The position numbers and the translations under genes were made by a program. Of a stretch of 59,255 bases of DNA, positions 36,543 to 42,997 are shown piece by piece. This stretch comes from an uncultured Gammaproteobacteria bacterium. GTDB lineage: Bacteria; Patescibacteriota; Microgenomatia; Daviesbacterales; UBA10151. The notes under the pieces were generated by a model that searched no databases, was not told the DNA's origin, and saw only the letters and a program-made list of their open reading frames with translations. Numbering within the stretch: the stretch's first letter is position 1; the number at the start of each line of letters is the position of its first letter. The stretch is from contig CAYNFQ010000004.1 of assembly GCA_964396715.1 (NCBI GenBank), positions 1-59,255 on the forward strand. The letters run 5' to 3'.

Positions 36543-36944
36543 ATGAGGATCATTAAGAAAGTGGCTTTGGCTTACTTTAAAGACAAAAAAATGCTGCAGG
36601 TGAGGACTAACAAACAGGATCAGGTGTTTTATACCTTGGGAGGGAAAATCGAGAAAGGGGAATCAGACATTGATTGTATTAAAAGAGAAATAAAAGAAGA
36701 GTTAGGTTGCGAGGTGGATGAGAAATCTTTAAAGTATCTGGCCACGTTTGAGGATGTTGCTCATGGTGATCAGGGTCTGTTGCACCTGAGGATGTATGAG
36801 GGGAAACTGGTGGGTGAGCCAAAGCCTGCATCAGAGGTGGTGGAAATTGGCTATTTTGATACCAACTCTGCCCCTGAAAATTTATCTGTCATTGCCAAAA
36901 GAACAATTTTCCCCTGGTTAAAGATGCATGGGTATATTAATTAG
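36543..36944 (+). CDS. NUDIX hydrolase
   Basis: Nudix box GGKIEKGESDIDCIKREIKEELG. Confidence 0.92.
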   Translation: MRIIKKVALAYFKDKKMLQVRTNKQDQVFYTLGGKIEKGESDIDCIKREIKEELGCEVDEKSLKYLATFEDVAHGDQGLLHLRMYEGKLVGEPKPASEVVEIGYFDTNSAPENLSVIAKRTIFPWLKMHGYIN

Positions 36945-37032
36945 TACTACGATACAGACAAATCCGAACCGCATTTCAATCGACGCATGCATCGTCGGCG
37001 CCAAGCTCACGTTCGTTCCCTGCCTAAAACCG
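36944..37032 (+). repeat. 89-bp dispersed repeat, copy 1
   Basis: About 90% identical to the reverse complement of 42793-42881; 36-bp identical core TTTCAATCGACGCATGCATCGTCGGCGCCAAGCTCA. Confidence 0.9.
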
Positions 37033-37068
37033 AAGTTTATACCCTTTTCTGTTTCCATGCCGCTCGGT

Positions 37069-37088
37069 CCCGATTCGAATCGGGACAC
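37069..37088. repeat. Perfect 20-bp palindrome (REP-like)
   Basis: GTCCCGATTCGAATCGGGAC; a second CCCGA-TGGC-TCGGG hairpin follows. Confidence 0.75.
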
Positions 37089-37331
37089 TCGCGAAGACTC
37101 CCGATGGCTCGGGCCGATGGTACAAAACATTTAAGGTAATCTATCGGTCCTCGCGATTATCGGGCAACACCCATTTTAGTTTTCACTACATTCCAAAATT
37201 TCCTTTTAATGGTGCTGCCCTCTTTTTTTGAGACTATATATCCGAGACTGCGGGGGCGGCGGAAGCCGCTTCCAACTTGGCCAATTTCGCCCATTTTGGC
37301 CATCCTCCTTCCGAAATGCTACAATGGAAGA

Positions 37332-37973
37332 ATGCCGGACGAACCAACTCCACAACCATCAGATCAACCTACCGAACCGCCGGAAGAAAAACCCGAGGAG
37401 AAAAAAGAAGAACCGACTCCGGAACAAAAGCCAACAGAGGAAAGTCCTAAATCGGAAGAACAACCTCTGTCAGAGCAACCAAAAGAAAAAGAGGCTCCGG
37501 AAACTCCATCACCTCAACCGGAATCCCTACCACAAGAACCATCAAAAACTGAAGAATCAAAACCAACTGAAGAGAAAAAGCCGGAAGAAGCTAAAACTCC
37601 GGAGGACAAACCTATTGCAGAACCTCCCAAATCACCCCAACAATCCGAATCCCCCAAATCCCCCGAACCAGAACTAAAAAAAGAGCCGCCTGCTATTACT
37701 CAAGAAGATGTAAATAAACAAATTGCTGAAAAATTAAAAGAGGAACAGGATGAAAGAAGAAAATTAGCCAACGAAGCAAGAGCTAAAAAGAAAGAAGATA
37801 ATTTAAACAGGCTTTTGGATTTTGCCAAAGAAAAGAAAATAATTACCAATGATGATGCCAGAGATTTTTTGCATGTTTCCCAATCAACAGCAACAAATTA
37901 TTTAAGTAAGTTGGTTAAATCTGGAAAGTTAAAACGAGAAGGACAGCGTGGTGGCACTAAATATTCTACTTAA
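37332..37973 (+). CDS. Pro/Glu/Lys-rich disordered protein with C-terminal winged HTH
   Basis: About 120 aa of PEK-rich low complexity, a coiled segment, then ITNDDARDFLHVSQSTATNYLSKLVKSGKL; likely start MPDEP. Confidence 0.75.
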   Translation: MPDEPTPQPSDQPTEPPEEKPEEKKEEPTPEQKPTEESPKSEEQPLSEQPKEKEAPETPSPQPESLPQEPSKTEESKPTEEKKPEEAKTPEDKPIAEPPKSPQQSESPKSPEPELKKEPPAITQEDVNKQIAEKLKEEQDERRKLANEARAKKKEDNLNRLLDFAKEKKIITNDDARDFLHVSQSTATNYLSKLVKSGKLKREGQRGGTKYST

Positions 37974-37984
37974 CTTAAATATAT

Positions 37985-38010
37985 TAGCGTTGTACAAGAG
38001 TACAATGCTA
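37985..38010. promoter_or_regulatory. Putative operator of the TrpR-like gene
   Basis: TAGCGTTGTAC-AAGA-GTACAATGCTA inverted repeat (10/11), 10 bp upstream of the ATG. Confidence 0.55.
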
Positions 38011-38020
38011 CAATGACACT

Positions 38021-38311
38021 ATGGTAAAACCTAACTTAGAAAAAGATAAAAAGCTATTAGTTGATACCTTAAAGAAATTAAGGTCCTCAAAAGATTTATC
38101 TAACTTTATAGATGATTTATTAACTGAAGAAGAAATTTTGGATTTAGCCCAACGAATTAAAATTGCCAAGTTAATTTTAGAAGAAAATACTTATGATGAG
38201 ATAGCAGAAAAAGTTGGAACTTCTACCTCTACCGTTTCTAAAATTGGGCAGATTATTAAATATGGCAATAATGGCCTGGAAAAGGTTTTGGGTAAAACTC
38301 TTAGAAAATAA
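38021..38311 (+). CDS. TrpR-like protein (YerC/YecD family)
   Basis: FIDDLLTEEEILDLAQRIKIAKLI...TYDEIAEKVGTSTSTVSKI...YGNNG. Confidence 0.88.
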   Translation: MVKPNLEKDKKLLVDTLKKLRSSKDLSNFIDDLLTEEEILDLAQRIKIAKLILEENTYDEIAEKVGTSTSTVSKIGQIIKYGNNGLEKVLGKTLRK

Positions 38312-39615: not shown

Positions 39616-39689
39616 GATAAATTCAGAATCTTTCTTCCCTACTACGAGTATCTACCTGGATGTCTTAGGTTTTCTTCTGACATGGCAGA

Positions 39690-40228
39690 GAGCCCCGCTC
39701 TTTTAAGAGCGGGGGTGAATGCCATCCCGTAGCGCAGCAACTTTCTTAAGTTGCGAAGCGGAGGCTAATTTGTCATGATTTGTTGGTGGCAAGGATTTAC
39801 AAAAGCGGAGCATCAACAAAACATAGGTTACTCACACATCTGGCATGGTGTCCCAAATATCACAGGAGAGTACTCATAGGTAAGGTAGCAAAAAGGTTAT
39901 ATGAATTGTTCAAGGATTGTTGTGAGATGAATGATTGGCAAATCCATCAGATCAATATCCAAAAGGATCATGTCCACCTGCTCATTCAGGTAAACCCCAG
40001 AGATAGTATTGCCCATGTAATGCATTATCTCAAGGGTGGTTCATCAAGGATCATCAGAAAAGGGTTTCCGGAATTGGAAGAGTTTCTGTGGGGAGATTCA
40101 TTCTGGTCGGATGGATACTTTGCTGAGAGTGTTGGTAAAGTCAGTGAGGCTACAATCAAAAACTATATTAAAAACCAAAACAAATCATGACGTAGGAGCA
40201 AAAGCCCCGTCATTTATGACGGGGATTC
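39690..40228 (+). mobile_element. IS200/IS605-family element, TnpA only
   Basis: Subterminal hairpins CCCCGCTCTT-TT-AAGAGCGGGG (39693-39714) and CCCCGTCAT-TT-ATGACGGGG (40205-40224) flank tnpA; the ends are approximate. Confidence 0.85.
39780..40190 (+). CDS. tnpA: IS200/IS605 family transposase TnpA
   Basis: HLAWCPKYHRRVL, DHVHLLI (HUH), LKGGSSR, FWSDGYF, YIKNQ. Confidence 0.95.
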   Translation: MLVARIYKSGASTKHRLLTHLAWCPKYHRRVLIGKVAKRLYELFKDCCEMNDWQIHQINIQKDHVHLLIQVNPRDSIAHVMHYLKGGSSRIIRKGFPELEEFLWGDSFWSDGYFAESVGKVSEATIKNYIKNQNKS

Positions 40229-41134: not shown

Positions 41135-41162
41135 TTGCGTAATTGCGCAAGTGTGTTATAAT
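41135..41162 (+). promoter_or_regulatory. Promoter overlapped by a palindromic operator
   Basis: TTGCGT, 16-bp spacer, TATAAT; the palindrome TTGCGTAATTGCGCAA (14/16) covers the -35 box. Confidence 0.6.
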
Positions 41163-41169
41163 TTGCTGC

Positions 41170-41643
41170 ATGGAATCTGATAAATCCATTATTCTAACAG
41201 AAGGTGTAGAGGCAAAAATTGACTATGCTGGAAAAATTGGACCAGGAGTTGATGGATACAGGGTAATTTTAAAAATTTATTCCACTCTACCAAGAACGAC
41301 AGCCGGGCTCATAAAAGAATATGAAGTTTGGGTATCACAGGAGTATCTTGAAGATAATGATTATACATTCAGTGATGAAGGTGCTAGTAAATTTGCCTTA
41401 GATGTAATCCAAAGGCGGTTTCAAGAATCCGGAAATAACGTTCCTAGAGAAAATGGATTAAAGGCCACCAGCGCACATGGTGTAGAGTTGGGAAATCCCC
41501 AATTCATATCTGATTCTTTGACACGATTAAATCTTGTGGTTAGAAAAAGTCAAGCAAAATGGTTAAAAGAACAAGCACGAAAACAAAATTCTAATGTGTC
41601 AGCCGTTGTTAGGAATATTTTAGAAGACATAAGGAATAAATAA
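41170..41643 (+). CDS. Hypothetical protein with C-terminal ribbon-helix-helix (CopG-like) domain
   Basis: C-terminus TRLNLVVRKSQAKWLKEQARKQNSNVSAVVRNILE fits the RHH pattern. Confidence 0.7.
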   Translation: MESDKSIILTEGVEAKIDYAGKIGPGVDGYRVILKIYSTLPRTTAGLIKEYEVWVSQEYLEDNDYTFSDEGASKFALDVIQRRFQESGNNVPRENGLKATSAHGVELGNPQFISDSLTRLNLVVRKSQAKWLKEQARKQNSNVSAVVRNILEDIRNK

Positions 41644-41644
41644 T

Positions 41645-42688
41645 ATGCCCAAGAAATTAACAATTATATTAGGTGCGGGAGCTTCACACAGCTTAAACCC
41701 AGATCCCAAGTCTTTGGATAACCAGGGATACAGACCTCCCTTAGCAAGAGATATTTTTGCAGGTAGTCGTGAATTTCGAGGGATACTTAACAAATATCCC
41801 TTGGCAGAAATTTTAGCAAGCGATATAGATAGAAGAATAAGACAGAATAAAGATGGAGTCGGTTTAGAACAAATACTAAAAACTTATGAGCAATTTCTAC
41901 GAGATGGAAAAGATGGGGCAATTACTAGACAATTCTTACAAATTCCTCTTTATTTAAATGAACTATTTGGGGAGATAACAACTCATTTTACTAAACAACC
42001 AGATGAATATAACAATTTAGTAAATTTGGCTTTGAGTCATTTAGATGAAGTATTATTTTTAACCCTAAACTATGACAATCTTTTAGAGATTCCTTTGTCC
42101 AGAAATTTCGACATAGATTTTTCAAAAGAAGAACATTACATCAAACAAGAAGGCTGGTCTTTAGTTAAGCTTCATGGATCAATAAATTGGTATAAGCAAT
42201 TTTCATCATTTCAAATTCAGGATAAAAATGATGGTGAATATTTTCGTTTACTAAAAACTTCTTCCCTACCCATACCCTTACAAGAAAATTTCGTTTTAAT
42301 CAGTATGAATGGTTATGGTAACAAATATATTAGTGATACCCCTGTATATCCAGCTTTAACAGTACCAGTTGACGGAAAATATGATATCAATTGTCCAGAA
42401 TCACATCAAGAAAAAGCTAGAAAATTTTTAGCTGACTGCCATAATTATTTAATTATTGGTACAAGTGGCAATGATCAGGATTTATTAGATTTATTAAAAA
42501 GTCATGTACGAAGCGCCCGTGTTATGTTAGTAGGTCGAGAGGAAGAAAGGATTAGGGAAACTAAAAGAAAATTCATGGATGCTGTACCACAATTTCAAAA
42601 TAGTATAGATACCTTTTACCATCAGAGAGGATTTAGTATGTTTGTTGAAAGTGGAAAGCTTGATGAATTCTTAGATTCAATAAGCTAG
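41645..42688 (+). CDS. SIR2-like (SIR2_2 family) protein
   Basis: IILGAGAS, FLTLNYDNLLE, VKLHGSINW, IIGTSGND; starts 1 bp after the upstream stop. Confidence 0.85.
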   Translation: MPKKLTIILGAGASHSLNPDPKSLDNQGYRPPLARDIFAGSREFRGILNKYPLAEILASDIDRRIRQNKDGVGLEQILKTYEQFLRDGKDGAITRQFLQIPLYLNELFGEITTHFTKQPDEYNNLVNLALSHLDEVLFLTLNYDNLLEIPLSRNFDIDFSKEEHYIKQEGWSLVKLHGSINWYKQFSSFQIQDKNDGEYFRLLKTSSLPIPLQENFVLISMNGYGNKYISDTPVYPALTVPVDGKYDINCPESHQEKARKFLADCHNYLIIGTSGNDQDLLDLLKSHVRSARVMLVGREEERIRETKRKFMDAVPQFQNSIDTFYHQRGFSMFVESGKLDEFLDSIS

Positions 42689-42768
42689 AAGAGTTCTTTA
42701 AAATTTTTGCGTTTTTTGAATCCGCTGTGGCGGATTGTTCGAGCCTCCGGTTTTACGAGCGAGGTCGG

Positions 42769-42788
42769 CCTGCCTGTCGGCAGACAGG
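42769..42788. repeat. REP-like palindrome of the CCTGCCTGCCGGCAGGCAGG family
   Basis: CCTGCCTGTCGGCAGACAGG, 18/20 match. Confidence 0.8.
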
Positions 42789-42792
42789 AATA

Positions 42793-42881
42793 CGGTTTTA
42801 GGTAGGGAACGAACATGAGCTTGGCGCCGACGATGCATGCGTCGATTGAAAATGCGTTCGAATTTGTTTGTATCGGAGTAC
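42793..42881 (-). repeat. 89-bp dispersed repeat, copy 2
   Basis: Inverted copy of 36944-37032, about 40 bp downstream of tRNA-Glu. Confidence 0.9.
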
Positions 42882-42923
42882 CGCAGAGGAATTTTAGTTC
42901 CTCAGCTTCAAAATCCCTTTCGG

Positions 42924-42997
42924 TACCGCCAACGGGAGTCGAACCCGTGATTTCCGGGATGAAAGCCCGATGTCCTAGGCCACTAGACGATGGCGGC
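42924..42997 (-). tRNA. tRNA-Glu(TTC)
   Basis: Acceptor GCCGCCA/TGGCGGT, anticodon arm TCGGG-CTTTCAT-CCCGG, TTCGACT. Confidence 0.95.

What the first reader, a model, noticed from the sequence alone, without database searches (positions are those of the whole stretch)
41135..42688. Autoregulated two-gene RHH + SIR2-like operon beside tRNA-Glu: candidate new defence or TA system
Seen: a promoter overlapped by a 16-bp palindrome, then a 157-aa protein with an unknown N-terminal domain and C-terminal RHH, then a coupled stand-alone SIR2_2 protein with intact GAGAS, TLNYD, KLHGS and GTS motifs. Established: SIR2 domains are NADase effectors in Thoeris, DSR, pAgo-SIR2 and SIR2-HerA. None of those partners is visible here. 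Inference: the small protein is an antitoxin or sensor that represses the operon and restrains a SIR2 NADase. Its position in a tRNA-anchored variable region fits a defence role.
Basis: partly seen in the sequence, partly recalled or inferred. Interest (0 to 1): 0.65.

Follow-up and report, generated by a model that had tools for sequence, protein, structure and literature searches.

The report
Conserved regulator with swappable defence-gene slot
The small gene next to the SIR2 gene is probably not a dedicated SIR2 partner: it looks like a self-regulating DNA-binding protein that, in a group of tiny-genome groundwater bacteria, sits in front of a slot holding many unrelated anti-virus genes, so it may serve as a marker for finding new ones.

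Summary
There is a promoter overlapped by a 16-bp near-palindrome (41135-41150). It is followed by a 157-aa protein (41170-41643) with a C-terminal ribbon-helix-helix (RHH), then one base later by a 347-aa SIR2_2 protein (41645-42688) with intact GAGAS, N142/D144 and H177, beside tRNA-Glu.

The pair is not a dedicated SIR2 system. In 13 loci from candidate-phyla-radiation (CPR; Microgenomates) assemblies, three things are conserved: the small protein (57-90% identity), its promoter and operator, and a short motif after the second gene. The second gene belongs to at least eight unrelated lineages:
- SIR2
- a PARIS-like AriAB ATPase
- a second ABC ATPase
- Shedu SduA
- a DpnII/MboI-type nuclease fold
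- DUF4238
- two unknown proteins

One locus has an empty slot. Three close SIR2 homologues (65-75% identical) lack the small gene; two sit inside restriction-modification operons. The N-terminal domain matches nothing in Pfam, PDB or BFVD. In distant relatives it is fused to RHH (at either end) or to HTH_17.

Best reading (0.58): an autoregulated RHH transcription factor forms the front end of a cargo slot that expresses interchangeable single-gene defence effectors. SIR2 is the current cargo and is probably an NADase. A specific antitoxin-toxin relation is unlikely. No function has been tested.

The parts
41135..41150 (.). Operator: TTGCGTAATTGCGCAA, two tandem copies of the 8-bp palindrome TTGCGCAA with one substitution. 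It overlaps the -35-like hexamer TTGCGT (41135-41140).
   Evidence: sequence; single match in the window; conserved upstream of gene A in all 13 loci, and a perfect palindrome in L012 and L018.
41154..41162 (+). Extended -10 element TGTTATAAT. It ends 7 nt before the start codon, which implies a leaderless transcript.
   Evidence: the -10 ends 6-8 nt before the start codon in 12 of 13 loci. The distant homologue in L021 has the same geometry.
41170..41643 (+). Gene A, 157 aa. It has a novel N-terminal domain (about residues 1-110) and a C-terminal ribbon-helix-helix (about residues 118-157).
   Evidence: 20 homologues, 60-90% identity. AF2 pLDDT 84; no fold match. RHH support; domain combinations in distant relatives.
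41645..42688 (+). Gene B, 347 aa, a stand-alone SIR2_2 protein and predicted NAD+ hydrolase. It is the current cargo of the slot.
   Evidence: Pfam 32 bits; invariant N142, D144, H177. AF2 pLDDT 93.7; best folds are the SIR2 of SIR2-HerA/Nezha, E 1e-9; profile hits to PsSIR2 8w9l and ThsA.
42693..42718 (+). Conserved 3' boundary motif GTTCTTTAAAATTTTTGCGTTTTTTG, lying 0-38 nt after the stop of the cargo gene across loci (4 nt here). Its function is unknown.
   Evidence: The 16-nt core AAAWTTTTGCGKTTTY occurs once in the window and once in each of L006, L007, L011, L015, L016 and L017; L020 has a one-base-longer variant. It lies 0-38 nt after the stop of the cargo gene (or of gene A in the empty locus L015). 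It is absent from loci with SIR2 but no gene A (L001-L005).
42722..42733 (+). GC-rich hairpin CCGC-TGTG-GCGG after the 3' motif. Its sequence varies between loci while the pairing is kept.
   Evidence: the hairpins of L011, L015 and L016 differ in sequence; in L020 the hairpin is followed by a T-run, like a terminator.
42793..42881 (+). GC-rich repeat module, an inverted copy of 36944-37032. It lies between the platform and the tRNA. Whether it belongs to the system is uncertain.
   Evidence: the same arrangement in L011; raised depth in metagenomes; no Rfam match.
42922..42997 (-). tRNA-Glu(UUC), convergent with the operon. It marks the edge of the variable region.
   Evidence: partial tRNA T-arms in the same position at the contig ends of L016 and L006.

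Best explanation
Gene A encodes an autoregulatory ribbon-helix-helix transcription factor. It carries a previously undescribed N-terminal domain.

Together with its leaderless promoter, its tandem TTGCGCAA operator and a short motif downstream, gene A forms a conserved platform. The position directly after A's stop codon is a cargo slot. In different CPR (Microgenomates/Patescibacteria) genomes that slot holds interchangeable, mostly single-gene defence effectors.

In this window the cargo is a stand-alone SIR2_2 protein, most likely an NAD+-hydrolysing abortive-infection effector.

Shown:
- the anatomy of the locus
- conservation of A, the operator and the 3' motif
- the diversity of the cargo genes
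- the intact SIR2 catalytic residues and SIR2 fold

Inferred:
- A dimers or tetramers bind the operator and repress the A-B transcript.
- B has no promoter of its own, so its level is set by A.
- The N-terminal domain tunes repression in response to some signal or through oligomerisation.
- A does not neutralise SIR2 by a specific protein contact.
For: 1. The slot is variable. Downstream of gene A homologues, at offsets from an 8-17-nt overlap to a 12-nt gap, lie:
- SIR2 (window; L016)
- an AriAB-like ABC ATPase (L011; PADLOC AriAB 4.7e-27)
- a second ABC ATPase only 27% identical to it (L012)
- Shedu SduA (L006; 4e-25)
- a DpnII-MboI nuclease fold (L017)
- DUF4238 (L020; DUF4238-Pers 7e-20)
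- a 379-aa unknown protein (L007, with a 57% identical homologue in L019)
- a 229-aa unknown protein (L008)
- nothing (L015)
Sources.

2. A stays similar across cargo types. It is 85% identical between the SIR2 locus and the AriAB locus, and cargo type changes at almost every tip of the A tree. A nearly identical surface is unlikely to bind unrelated folds specifically.

3. The operator, the extended -10 and the 6-8-nt distance to the start codon are conserved in the loci. No promoter-like site lies at the A/B junction.

4. The window and L011 share flanks (82% nt identity over A and its promoter; 71% after B). They are syntenic further left, and only the cargo is replaced.

5. RHH assignment.

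6. In distant relatives the N-domain is always stand-alone or fused to a DNA-binding domain: RHH at the C or N terminus, or HTH_17.

7. Three close SIR2 homologues (65-75% identical) occur without A. One sits in an hsdR-M-S-SIR2-DUF4238 operon. Another follows an SNF2/PLD protein and an MmeI-type methyltransferase. SIR2 therefore behaves as a movable module.

8. The SIR2 gene has a lower GC content (0.33) than A (0.36) and the window (0.39).
Against: - Nothing has been tested experimentally. DNA binding, repression and co-transcription are all inferred.
- No RNA data exist for this organism; only DNA runs were found.
- The role of the N-terminal domain is unknown. It has a strongly conserved polar set (R31, Y51-E-V-W54, E61-D62, R83 in window numbering), which could equally be a protein-contact or catalytic surface.
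- The empty locus L015 shows that A is kept without cargo, so A may have another primary job.
- The conserved 3' motif is unexplained.
- Two A-family loci lie next to large serine recombinases, which hints at a role in a mobile-element backbone.
- The sample is small: 13 loci, with the cargo readable in 10, many on short contigs.
- Direct A-B contact has not been excluded; no multimer prediction was available.
Confidence: 0.58

Rival explanations
1. Mobile-element or hotspot backbone gene. Gene A is the regulator of an integrative element, for example a repressor or directionality factor acting with a serine recombinase that targets tRNA-proximal sites. Alternatively it is simply a conserved flank of an insertion hotspot. 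The defence genes land next to it and are read through, without A having evolved to control them.
For: - Platforms lie 150-230 nt from the 3' end of a convergent tRNA in the window, L016 and L006.
- L011 has a large serine recombinase between the platform and tRNA-Gly, flanked by 118-nt inverted repeats.
- The distant homologue P0147 is directly followed by a large serine recombinase.
- Some relatives carry an excisionase-type HTH_17 domain.
- The empty slot in L015 shows that A is kept without cargo.
- Two lineages keep A at a syntenic place while the cargo varies.
Against: - Cargo genes start within 12 nt of A's stop, or overlap it, in every locus, and show no promoter of their own. Independent insertions would give variable spacers.
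- No A relatives were found in IMG/VR, INPHARED phages or PLSDB plasmids.
- The two recombinases are only 24% identical, and the window has none.
- No direct repeats or att duplication were found around the platform.
Confidence: 0.2
2. Promiscuous antitoxin or adaptor. The N-terminal domain of A physically binds and restrains whichever effector follows it. This would be a Panacea-like hyperpromiscuous neutraliser that also autoregulates through its RHH.
For: - The layout is that of a bicistronic, translationally coupled, autoregulated operon, as in type II toxin-antitoxin systems.
- Several cargo genes are potentially toxic (SIR2, nucleases).
- There is precedent for one antitoxin domain paired with dozens of toxin domains (PanA; PMC8832971, PMC10440598).
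Against: - A is 85% identical between loci with unrelated cargo folds.
- The RHH is C-terminal, and the variable part expected of a toxin-binding segment is missing: the whole protein is conserved.
- A persists without any cargo in L015.
- Several cargo types (Shedu, fused AriAB, DUF4238) match models of defence genes that PADLOC lists without an antitoxin partner.
Confidence: 0.12
3. Dedicated two-gene SIR2 system. A is the cognate sensor or antitoxin of this SIR2 NADase.
For: The pair recurs in L016 with a different upstream neighbour. The two genes are coupled and share a promoter.
Against: L016 is a near-identical copy of the same element (A 90%, SIR2 93%). Nine other A loci have non-SIR2 cargo or none, and the cargo of the other two could not be read. 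None of the three SIR2-family loci examined beyond these (L001/2, L003, L005) has gene A.
Confidence: 0.05

Closest known systems
BrxR/CapW WYL-domain regulators and RptR, repressors found upstream of diverse defence systems (PMC9122601; PMC12255303)
   Same: A small DNA-binding protein with an extra, presumably sensory, domain. It is encoded at the head of many unrelated defence systems. It binds inverted repeats at its own promoter, which gives autoregulated control of the downstream immune genes.
   Different: There is no WYL or wHTH domain: gene A has no Pfam match above cut-off. The DNA-binding module is a C-terminal RHH, and the N-domain has no known fold. The cargo is a single gene placed directly at the regulator's stop codon and bounded by a conserved 3' motif. 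The family is restricted to CPR bacteria.
Controller (C) proteins of restriction-modification systems
   Same: A small autoregulator is co-transcribed with, and directly upstream of, a potentially toxic nuclease gene. Palindromic operator boxes lie over the promoter, and some C genes have leaderless transcripts (from general knowledge).
   Different: C proteins are Xre-type HTH proteins of about 80 aa without an extra domain, tied to restriction-modification systems with a methyltransferase. Here there is no methyltransferase, and the cargo spans NADase, ATPase and nuclease families.
Defence hotspots of P2 prophages and P4 satellites (PMC9122126)
   Same: Conserved flanks with a slot where unrelated anti-phage genes replace one another between close relatives. 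PARIS-type ATPases and DUF4238 are among the cargo families mentioned in that paper.
   Different: Those hotspots lie in recognisable phages or satellites, and the cargo usually brings its own regulation. Here no phage or satellite genes are visible. The slot is a single-gene position within the regulator's own operon.
Panacea (PanA, DUF4065) hyperpromiscuous antitoxin domain (PMC8832971)
   Same: One conserved small-protein family is paired in two-gene operons with many unrelated effector or toxin domains.
   Different: PanA neutralises by direct binding, and its sequences diverge with their toxins. Gene A stays 57-90% identical across cargo types, carries a DNA-binding RHH, and can occur without cargo.
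SIR2 subunit of SIR2-HerA (Nezha) and ThsA of Thoeris
   Same: SIR2 Rossmann fold with a catalytic Asn/Asp and His. The best structural matches are 8su9, 8sub and 8w9l at E 1e-9 to 7e-8, and the profile hits 8w9l and ThsA 6lhx. These proteins are NAD+-depleting effectors.
   Different: Identity is only 15-17% and TM about 0.5. There is no HerA, SLOG/Macro domain, TIR, pAgo or STAND partner in the locus. The family is a distinct clade of about 347-aa stand-alone proteins; relatives of it are attached to restriction-modification operons.

Membership tests
SIR2_2 (PF13289) superfamily | Pfam model match above the gathering score | tested here: met
   32.0 bits against a cut-off of 24.5, residues 137-289.
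SIR2_2 (PF13289) superfamily | NAD-binding GxGxS loop and catalytic Asn/Asp plus His | tested here: met
   G10-A-G-A-S14 is present. N142, D144 and H177 are invariant in 43 homologues.
SIR2_2 (PF13289) superfamily | Sirtuin-type Rossmann fold | tested here: met
   AF2 pLDDT 93.7. Foldseek gives 174 PDB hits at E<=1e-3, all of the top 50 being SIR2 or sirtuin entries.
SIR2_2 (PF13289) superfamily | NAD+ hydrolase activity | not testable with these tools
   Needs an enzyme assay.
Thoeris (ThsA/ThsB) | SIR2 fused to a SLOG/Macro sensor domain, plus a TIR-domain ThsB gene | tested here: not met
   The 347-aa protein is a SIR2 domain only. No TIR gene lies among the neighbours.
SIR2-HerA (Nezha) | Adjacent HerA-type ATPase gene | tested here: not met
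   Neighbours within about 5 kb are a 271-aa unknown protein, IS200 TnpA, tRNA-Glu and glutamine synthetase.
Short pAgo-SIR2 (SPARSA) and DSR1/DSR2 | A pAgo partner, or a protein of more than 1000 aa with a C-terminal sensor | tested here: not met
   No Argonaute gene is present and the protein is 347 aa. Only weak Aga_SIR2 model hits were found (E 1e-5).
Type II toxin-antitoxin pair with an RHH antitoxin | Cognate, co-evolving pair; the antitoxin has a DNA-binding domain plus a toxin-specific binding segment | tested here: not met
   The same A (57-90% identity) precedes 8 unrelated gene lineages and one empty slot. The RHH is C-terminal and the whole protein is conserved.
Type II toxin-antitoxin pair with an RHH antitoxin | Toxicity of gene 2 neutralised by gene 1 | not testable with these tools
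   Needs expression tests.
Ribbon-helix-helix (CopG/Arc/MetJ) DNA-binding proteins | Beta-strand, helix, helix motif detectable by sequence profile | tested here: met
   The C-terminal profile hits AvtR 4hv0 at E 3e-4, with weak hits to ORF56 2k9i and CopG 9kkd. RHH_1 matches 2 members at E 0.005 and DUF6364 matches 4. Helices lie at 126-138 and 143-156. All matches are below the Pfam cut-offs.
Ribbon-helix-helix (CopG/Arc/MetJ) DNA-binding proteins | Binds repeated subsites at its own promoter | tested here: inconclusive
   A conserved tandem TTGCGCAA operator overlaps the promoter in 13 loci. Binding itself was not tested.
WYL-domain defence regulators (BrxR/CapW) | wHTH plus WYL domain | tested here: not met
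   No WYL or HTH Pfam hit. The fold has no PDB match.
WYL-domain defence regulators (BrxR/CapW) | Encoded upstream of diverse defence systems, with an operator at its own promoter | tested here: met
   This is a functional analogy only.
Integron gene cassettes | IntI tyrosine recombinase, attI, and attC sites with the GTTRRRY core after each cassette | tested here: not met
   No integrase is present in the window. The 3' motif GTTCTTTAAAATTTTTGCG does not fit GTTRRRY. There is one cassette per locus.

The most novel reading that the evidence does not exclude
The N-terminal domain of gene A is a new kind of infection or stress sensor. The whole unit is a plug-and-play inducible immune expression module specific to CPR bacteria. 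That unit comprises the leaderless promoter, the tandem TTGCGCAA operator, the sensor-RHH protein, a single-gene slot and a 3' boundary motif that may be a second A-binding half-site or an exchange site. Any self-sufficient effector dropped into the slot would become infection-inducible. The unknown cargo genes (the 229-aa protein of L008 and the 379-aa protein of L007/L019) would then be new defence effectors.
Probability: 0.3. Interest if true: 0.75.

Novelty: new variant of a known kind. Interest (0 to 1): 0.58.

Why it matters
Little is known about how defence genes are regulated and exchanged in CPR/Patescibacteria. These bacteria have tiny genomes and cannot be grown alone.

A conserved regulator with a fixed operator and a one-gene cargo slot offers three things:
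- A bait for guilt-by-association discovery of new defence genes in these organisms. Two cargo families found here have no annotation.
- A compact, portable regulatory part: a 28-bp promoter/operator plus a 157-aa repressor.
- A new protein domain that repeatedly partners with DNA-binding modules.

It also corrects the tempting reading that any small RHH gene next to a SIR2 gene is a toxin-antitoxin pair.

Tried and rejected
- Known SIR2 systems: no partner genes were found.
- PDB by sequence: nothing for A and nothing for SIR2 as a single sequence. The profile gave only distant SIR2 hits.
- Foldseek of the A model against PDB and BFVD: best E 0.058 and 0.017, TM <0.3, so no usable match.
- Phage or plasmid origin of A: no relatives in IMG/VR with three different queries, INPHARED or PLSDB.
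- Known RNA in the conserved region after gene B and in the repeat at 36944-37300: no Rfam match, even at permissive thresholds. Four copies of the repeat showed no covariation.
- The 3' motif as an intrinsic terminator: the T-run precedes the hairpin in most loci, so it does not fit. Only L020 has a canonical hairpin plus T-run further on.
- The 3' motif as an integron attC: the core does not fit.
- Population-level cargo variants in the source metagenomes: none; the SIR2 cargo is fixed at even depth in four runs.
- RNA evidence for the leaderless start: no RNA runs hold the locus.
- Remnant recombinase in the window: none.
Full report
**What is in the window**

Two plus-strand genes lie at 41170-41643 (gene A, 157 aa) and 41645-42688 (gene B, 347 aa). 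One base separates A's stop from B's start. tRNA-Glu(UUC) lies convergently at 42922-42997.

Upstream of A, TTGCGTAATTGCGCAA (41135-41150) overlaps a -35-like TTGCGT. After a 16-nt spacer comes an extended -10, TGTTATAAT (41154-41162). Only 7 nt separate the -10 from the ATG and there is no Shine-Dalgarno sequence. The transcript is therefore most likely leaderless (sequence).

One nuance: the palindrome in the window is one substitution from perfect.

**The SIR2 protein**

A search of 5.8 billion proteins gave 135 relatives, mostly about 345-360 aa. Some carry names such as Levybacteria, Microgenomates, Parcubacteria, Bathyarchaeota and Chloroflexi.

In a 43-member alignment N142, Y143, D144, H177, G178 and S179 are invariant, and the GAGAS loop is nearly so. 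The AF2 model is confident (pLDDT 93.7). Its best structural neighbours are the SIR2 subunits of the SIR2-HerA/Nezha anti-phage complexes (E 1e-9 to 7e-8, TM about 0.5, 15-17% identity), followed by classical sirtuins. A sequence profile reaches PsSIR2 8w9l (3.6e-6) and ThsA 6lhx (1.8e-4).

B is thus a catalytically intact, distinct clade of defence-type SIR2. NADase activity is inferred, not shown. No HerA, TIR, pAgo or STAND gene is nearby.

**The pair is not a cognate pair**

I read the neighbourhoods of three close SIR2 homologues. None has gene A.
- P0004 (71% identical) sits in an operon hsdR-hsdM-hsdS-SIR2-DUF4238 (L001/L002).
- P0011 (65%) follows an SNF2/PLD protein and an MmeI-type methyltransferase, which its start overlaps (L003).
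- P0002 (75%) faces a second SIR2_2 gene (L005).

Gene A has only 20 cluster-level homologues in the same database, all 60-90% identical. The gene that follows them differs from locus to locus:

| Locus | Gene following A |
|---|---|
| L016 | SIR2 (A 90%, SIR2 93% identical to the window) |
| L011 (a Daviesbacteria MAG) | 482-aa ABC ATPase; best PADLOC model is the fused PARIS protein AriAB (4.7e-27) |
| L012 | another ABC ATPase, 27% identical to L011's |
| L006 | Shedu SduA (PADLOC 4e-25) |
| L017 | DpnII-MboI-type nuclease fold |
| L020 | DUF4238 (PADLOC DUF4238-Pers 7e-20) |
| L007 | 379-aa protein with only weak HSDR_N hits; a 57% identical homologue is in L019 |
| L008-L010 | 229-aa protein with no hits |
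| L015 | nothing: A's stop is followed after 10 nt by the motif that elsewhere follows the second gene |

On a tree of A, cargo type changes at nearly every tip. A is 85% identical between the SIR2 locus and the AriAB locus.

**A conserved platform**

In all 13 loci the upstream DNA reads TTGCGyAAtTGCGCAAGTrTGTTAyAaT. This is two tandem 8-bp palindromes TTGCGCAA followed by an extended -10. It forms a perfect 16-bp palindrome in L012 and L018. The -10 ends 6-8 nt before the start codon in 12 of the 13 loci.

The second gene starts between an 8-17-nt overlap and a 12-nt gap relative to A's stop.

Directly after the second gene comes GTTCTTTAAAATTTTTGCGTTTTTTG. Its 16-nt core is found once in the window (42701-42716) and once in each of six other A loci, with a one-base variant in L020. 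It is absent from the five SIR2 loci that lack A. A GC-rich hairpin of variable sequence follows it.

The window and L011 are related genomes. Window 36952-38296 is collinear with L011 178-1824 (a wHTH gene and a TrpR-like gene; the latter reaches 87% amino-acid identity). Window 41086-41647 matches L011 at 82% nt identity, and window 42688-42861 at 71%. The 1.0-kb SIR2 gene is replaced by the 1.45-kb ATPase gene exactly between A's stop and the 3' motif.

A second lineage (L006, L014, L015, L018) shares a proBA-proC neighbour or similar upstream DNA. It carries Shedu, an empty slot, or other starts.

So A is the stable element and the following gene is cargo.

**What gene A is**

Pfam gives nothing above cut-off.

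The C-terminal 45 residues have the RHH pattern. A profile of them hits the RHH regulator AvtR (4hv0, E 3e-4), and more weakly ORF56 and a CopG protein.

The AF2 model (pLDDT 84) has an N-terminal domain of four long strands, two helices and a hairpin (residues 6-107), a low-confidence linker, and two C-terminal helices. Foldseek finds no credible match in PDB or BFVD.

An exhaustive HMM search of 1.84 billion representatives found 49 clusters. In them the N-domain occurs in four arrangements:
- alone (105-130 aa)
- with a C-terminal RHH
- with an N-terminal RHH
- with an N-terminal HTH_17/MerR-type domain

R31, Y51-E-V-W54, E61-D62 and R83 (window numbering) are conserved throughout the family. 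A domain that is repeatedly combined with different DNA-binding modules is most simply a regulatory (ligand-, protein- or self-binding) domain of transcription factors.

One distant member (P0147, L021) also has a -10 placed 5 nt before its ATG, with an inverted repeat over the promoter. It is followed by a large serine recombinase.

**Most likely mechanism**

A binds the tandem TTGCGCAA operator through RHH dimers and represses the leaderless A-B transcript. B has no promoter-like site of its own and is translationally coupled to A, so its level follows A's promoter. The N-terminal domain modulates this repression.

The cargo genes are of the kind that work as single-gene defence systems (Shedu, fused AriAB, DUF4238) or as effector modules (SIR2, nuclease folds). 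Here the SIR2 would deplete NAD+ when expressed or activated.

A specific A-SIR2 protein contact is unlikely, because almost the same A precedes unrelated folds and can stand alone.

I put this reading at about 0.58. The alternatives are:
- a mobile-element or hotspot backbone gene with no evolved control of the cargo (0.2)
- a Panacea-like promiscuous antitoxin (0.12)
- a dedicated SIR2 pair (0.05)

The mobile-element reading is supported by the tRNA adjacency (window, L016, L006) and by the serine recombinases in L011 and L021. Against it, no relatives occur in phage, viral-contig or plasmid collections, and the two recombinases are only 24% identical.

**Comparison with known systems**

Functionally the closest are the defence-associated repressors BrxR/CapW (WYL domain; PMC9122601) and RptR (PMC12255303), the controller proteins of restriction-modification systems, and the cargo hotspots of P2/P4 elements (PMC9122126). 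Gene A is not a member of any of these families: it has no WYL or HTH domain and a new fold.

PanA (PMC8832971) is the closest analogue for one partner paired with many effectors, but PanA works by direct binding and diverges with its toxins.

I classify the finding as a new variant of a known kind. The known kind is a regulator at the head of interchangeable defence genes. The new elements are the protein family, a precise one-gene slot inside the regulator's operon, a conserved 3' boundary motif, and restriction to CPR bacteria.

**Limits**

- There are no experiments and no RNA data.
- The four source metagenomes show the SIR2 cargo fixed at even depth.
- Many loci are short contigs, so cargo could be read in only 10 of the 13.
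- The 3' motif and the GC-rich repeat between it and the tRNA remain unexplained.

Noticed in passing
window 42793-42881 (+) and 36944-37032 (-); L011 8030-8094 (+) and 251-190 (-): A GC-rich module of about 60-90 nt (core GGGAACGAACGTGAGCTKGGCGCCGAC..GCGTCGATTGRAA..GTTCG) occurs as an inverted pair bracketing the variable region in both related genomes. Its depth is 3-8x higher than neighbouring sequence in three of four groundwater runs (about 2x in the fourth). There is no Rfam match and no covariation among the 4 copies.
   Followed up: partly
window 37030-37300 (minus-strand reading); L011 570-860: A GC-rich non-coding stretch with hairpins, conserved between the two genomes. It has no Rfam hit even at E<=5 and may be an undescribed small RNA.
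   Followed up: partly
L011 8096-8213 and 9713-9830: A large serine recombinase gene (Resolvase + Recombinase + Zn_ribbon_recom) is flanked by 118-nt inverted repeats that are 94% identical. The right arm overlaps the 3' end of tRNA-Gly(CCC).
   Followed up: partly
L001/L002 675-7986; L003 1-7044: SIR2 homologues 65-71% identical to the window's sit inside restriction-modification operons. One operon is hsdR-hsdM-hsdS-SIR2-DUF4238. In the other, SIR2 follows an SNF2/PLD helicase and an MmeI-type methyltransferase. This suggests SIR2 add-ons to restriction-modification systems in CPR bacteria.
   Followed up: no
L008 3895-4584; L007 5485-6624 (homologue in L019 2304-2852): Two cargo genes in the slot (229 aa and 379 aa) have no Pfam, PADLOC or PDB match. 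They are candidate new defence genes.
   Followed up: partly
window 39682-40190: An IS200/IS605-type Y1 transposase gene (Y1_Tnp, E 1e-40) is preceded by a 21-nt imperfect hairpin at 39682-39725. It lies inside the variable region, 1 kb upstream of gene A.
   Followed up: no
L011 2776-5847: Upstream of gene A in the Daviesbacteria locus lie an 810-aa protein and a 186-aa HExxH protein, both without Pfam matches. This pair is not found next to gene A in any other locus.
   Followed up: partly
window 41170; L021 515: Promoter -10 elements end 5-8 nt before the start codon in gene A, in 11 of its 12 homologues examined, and in a distant homologue. Leaderless mRNAs may therefore be usual for this family.
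   Followed up: partly
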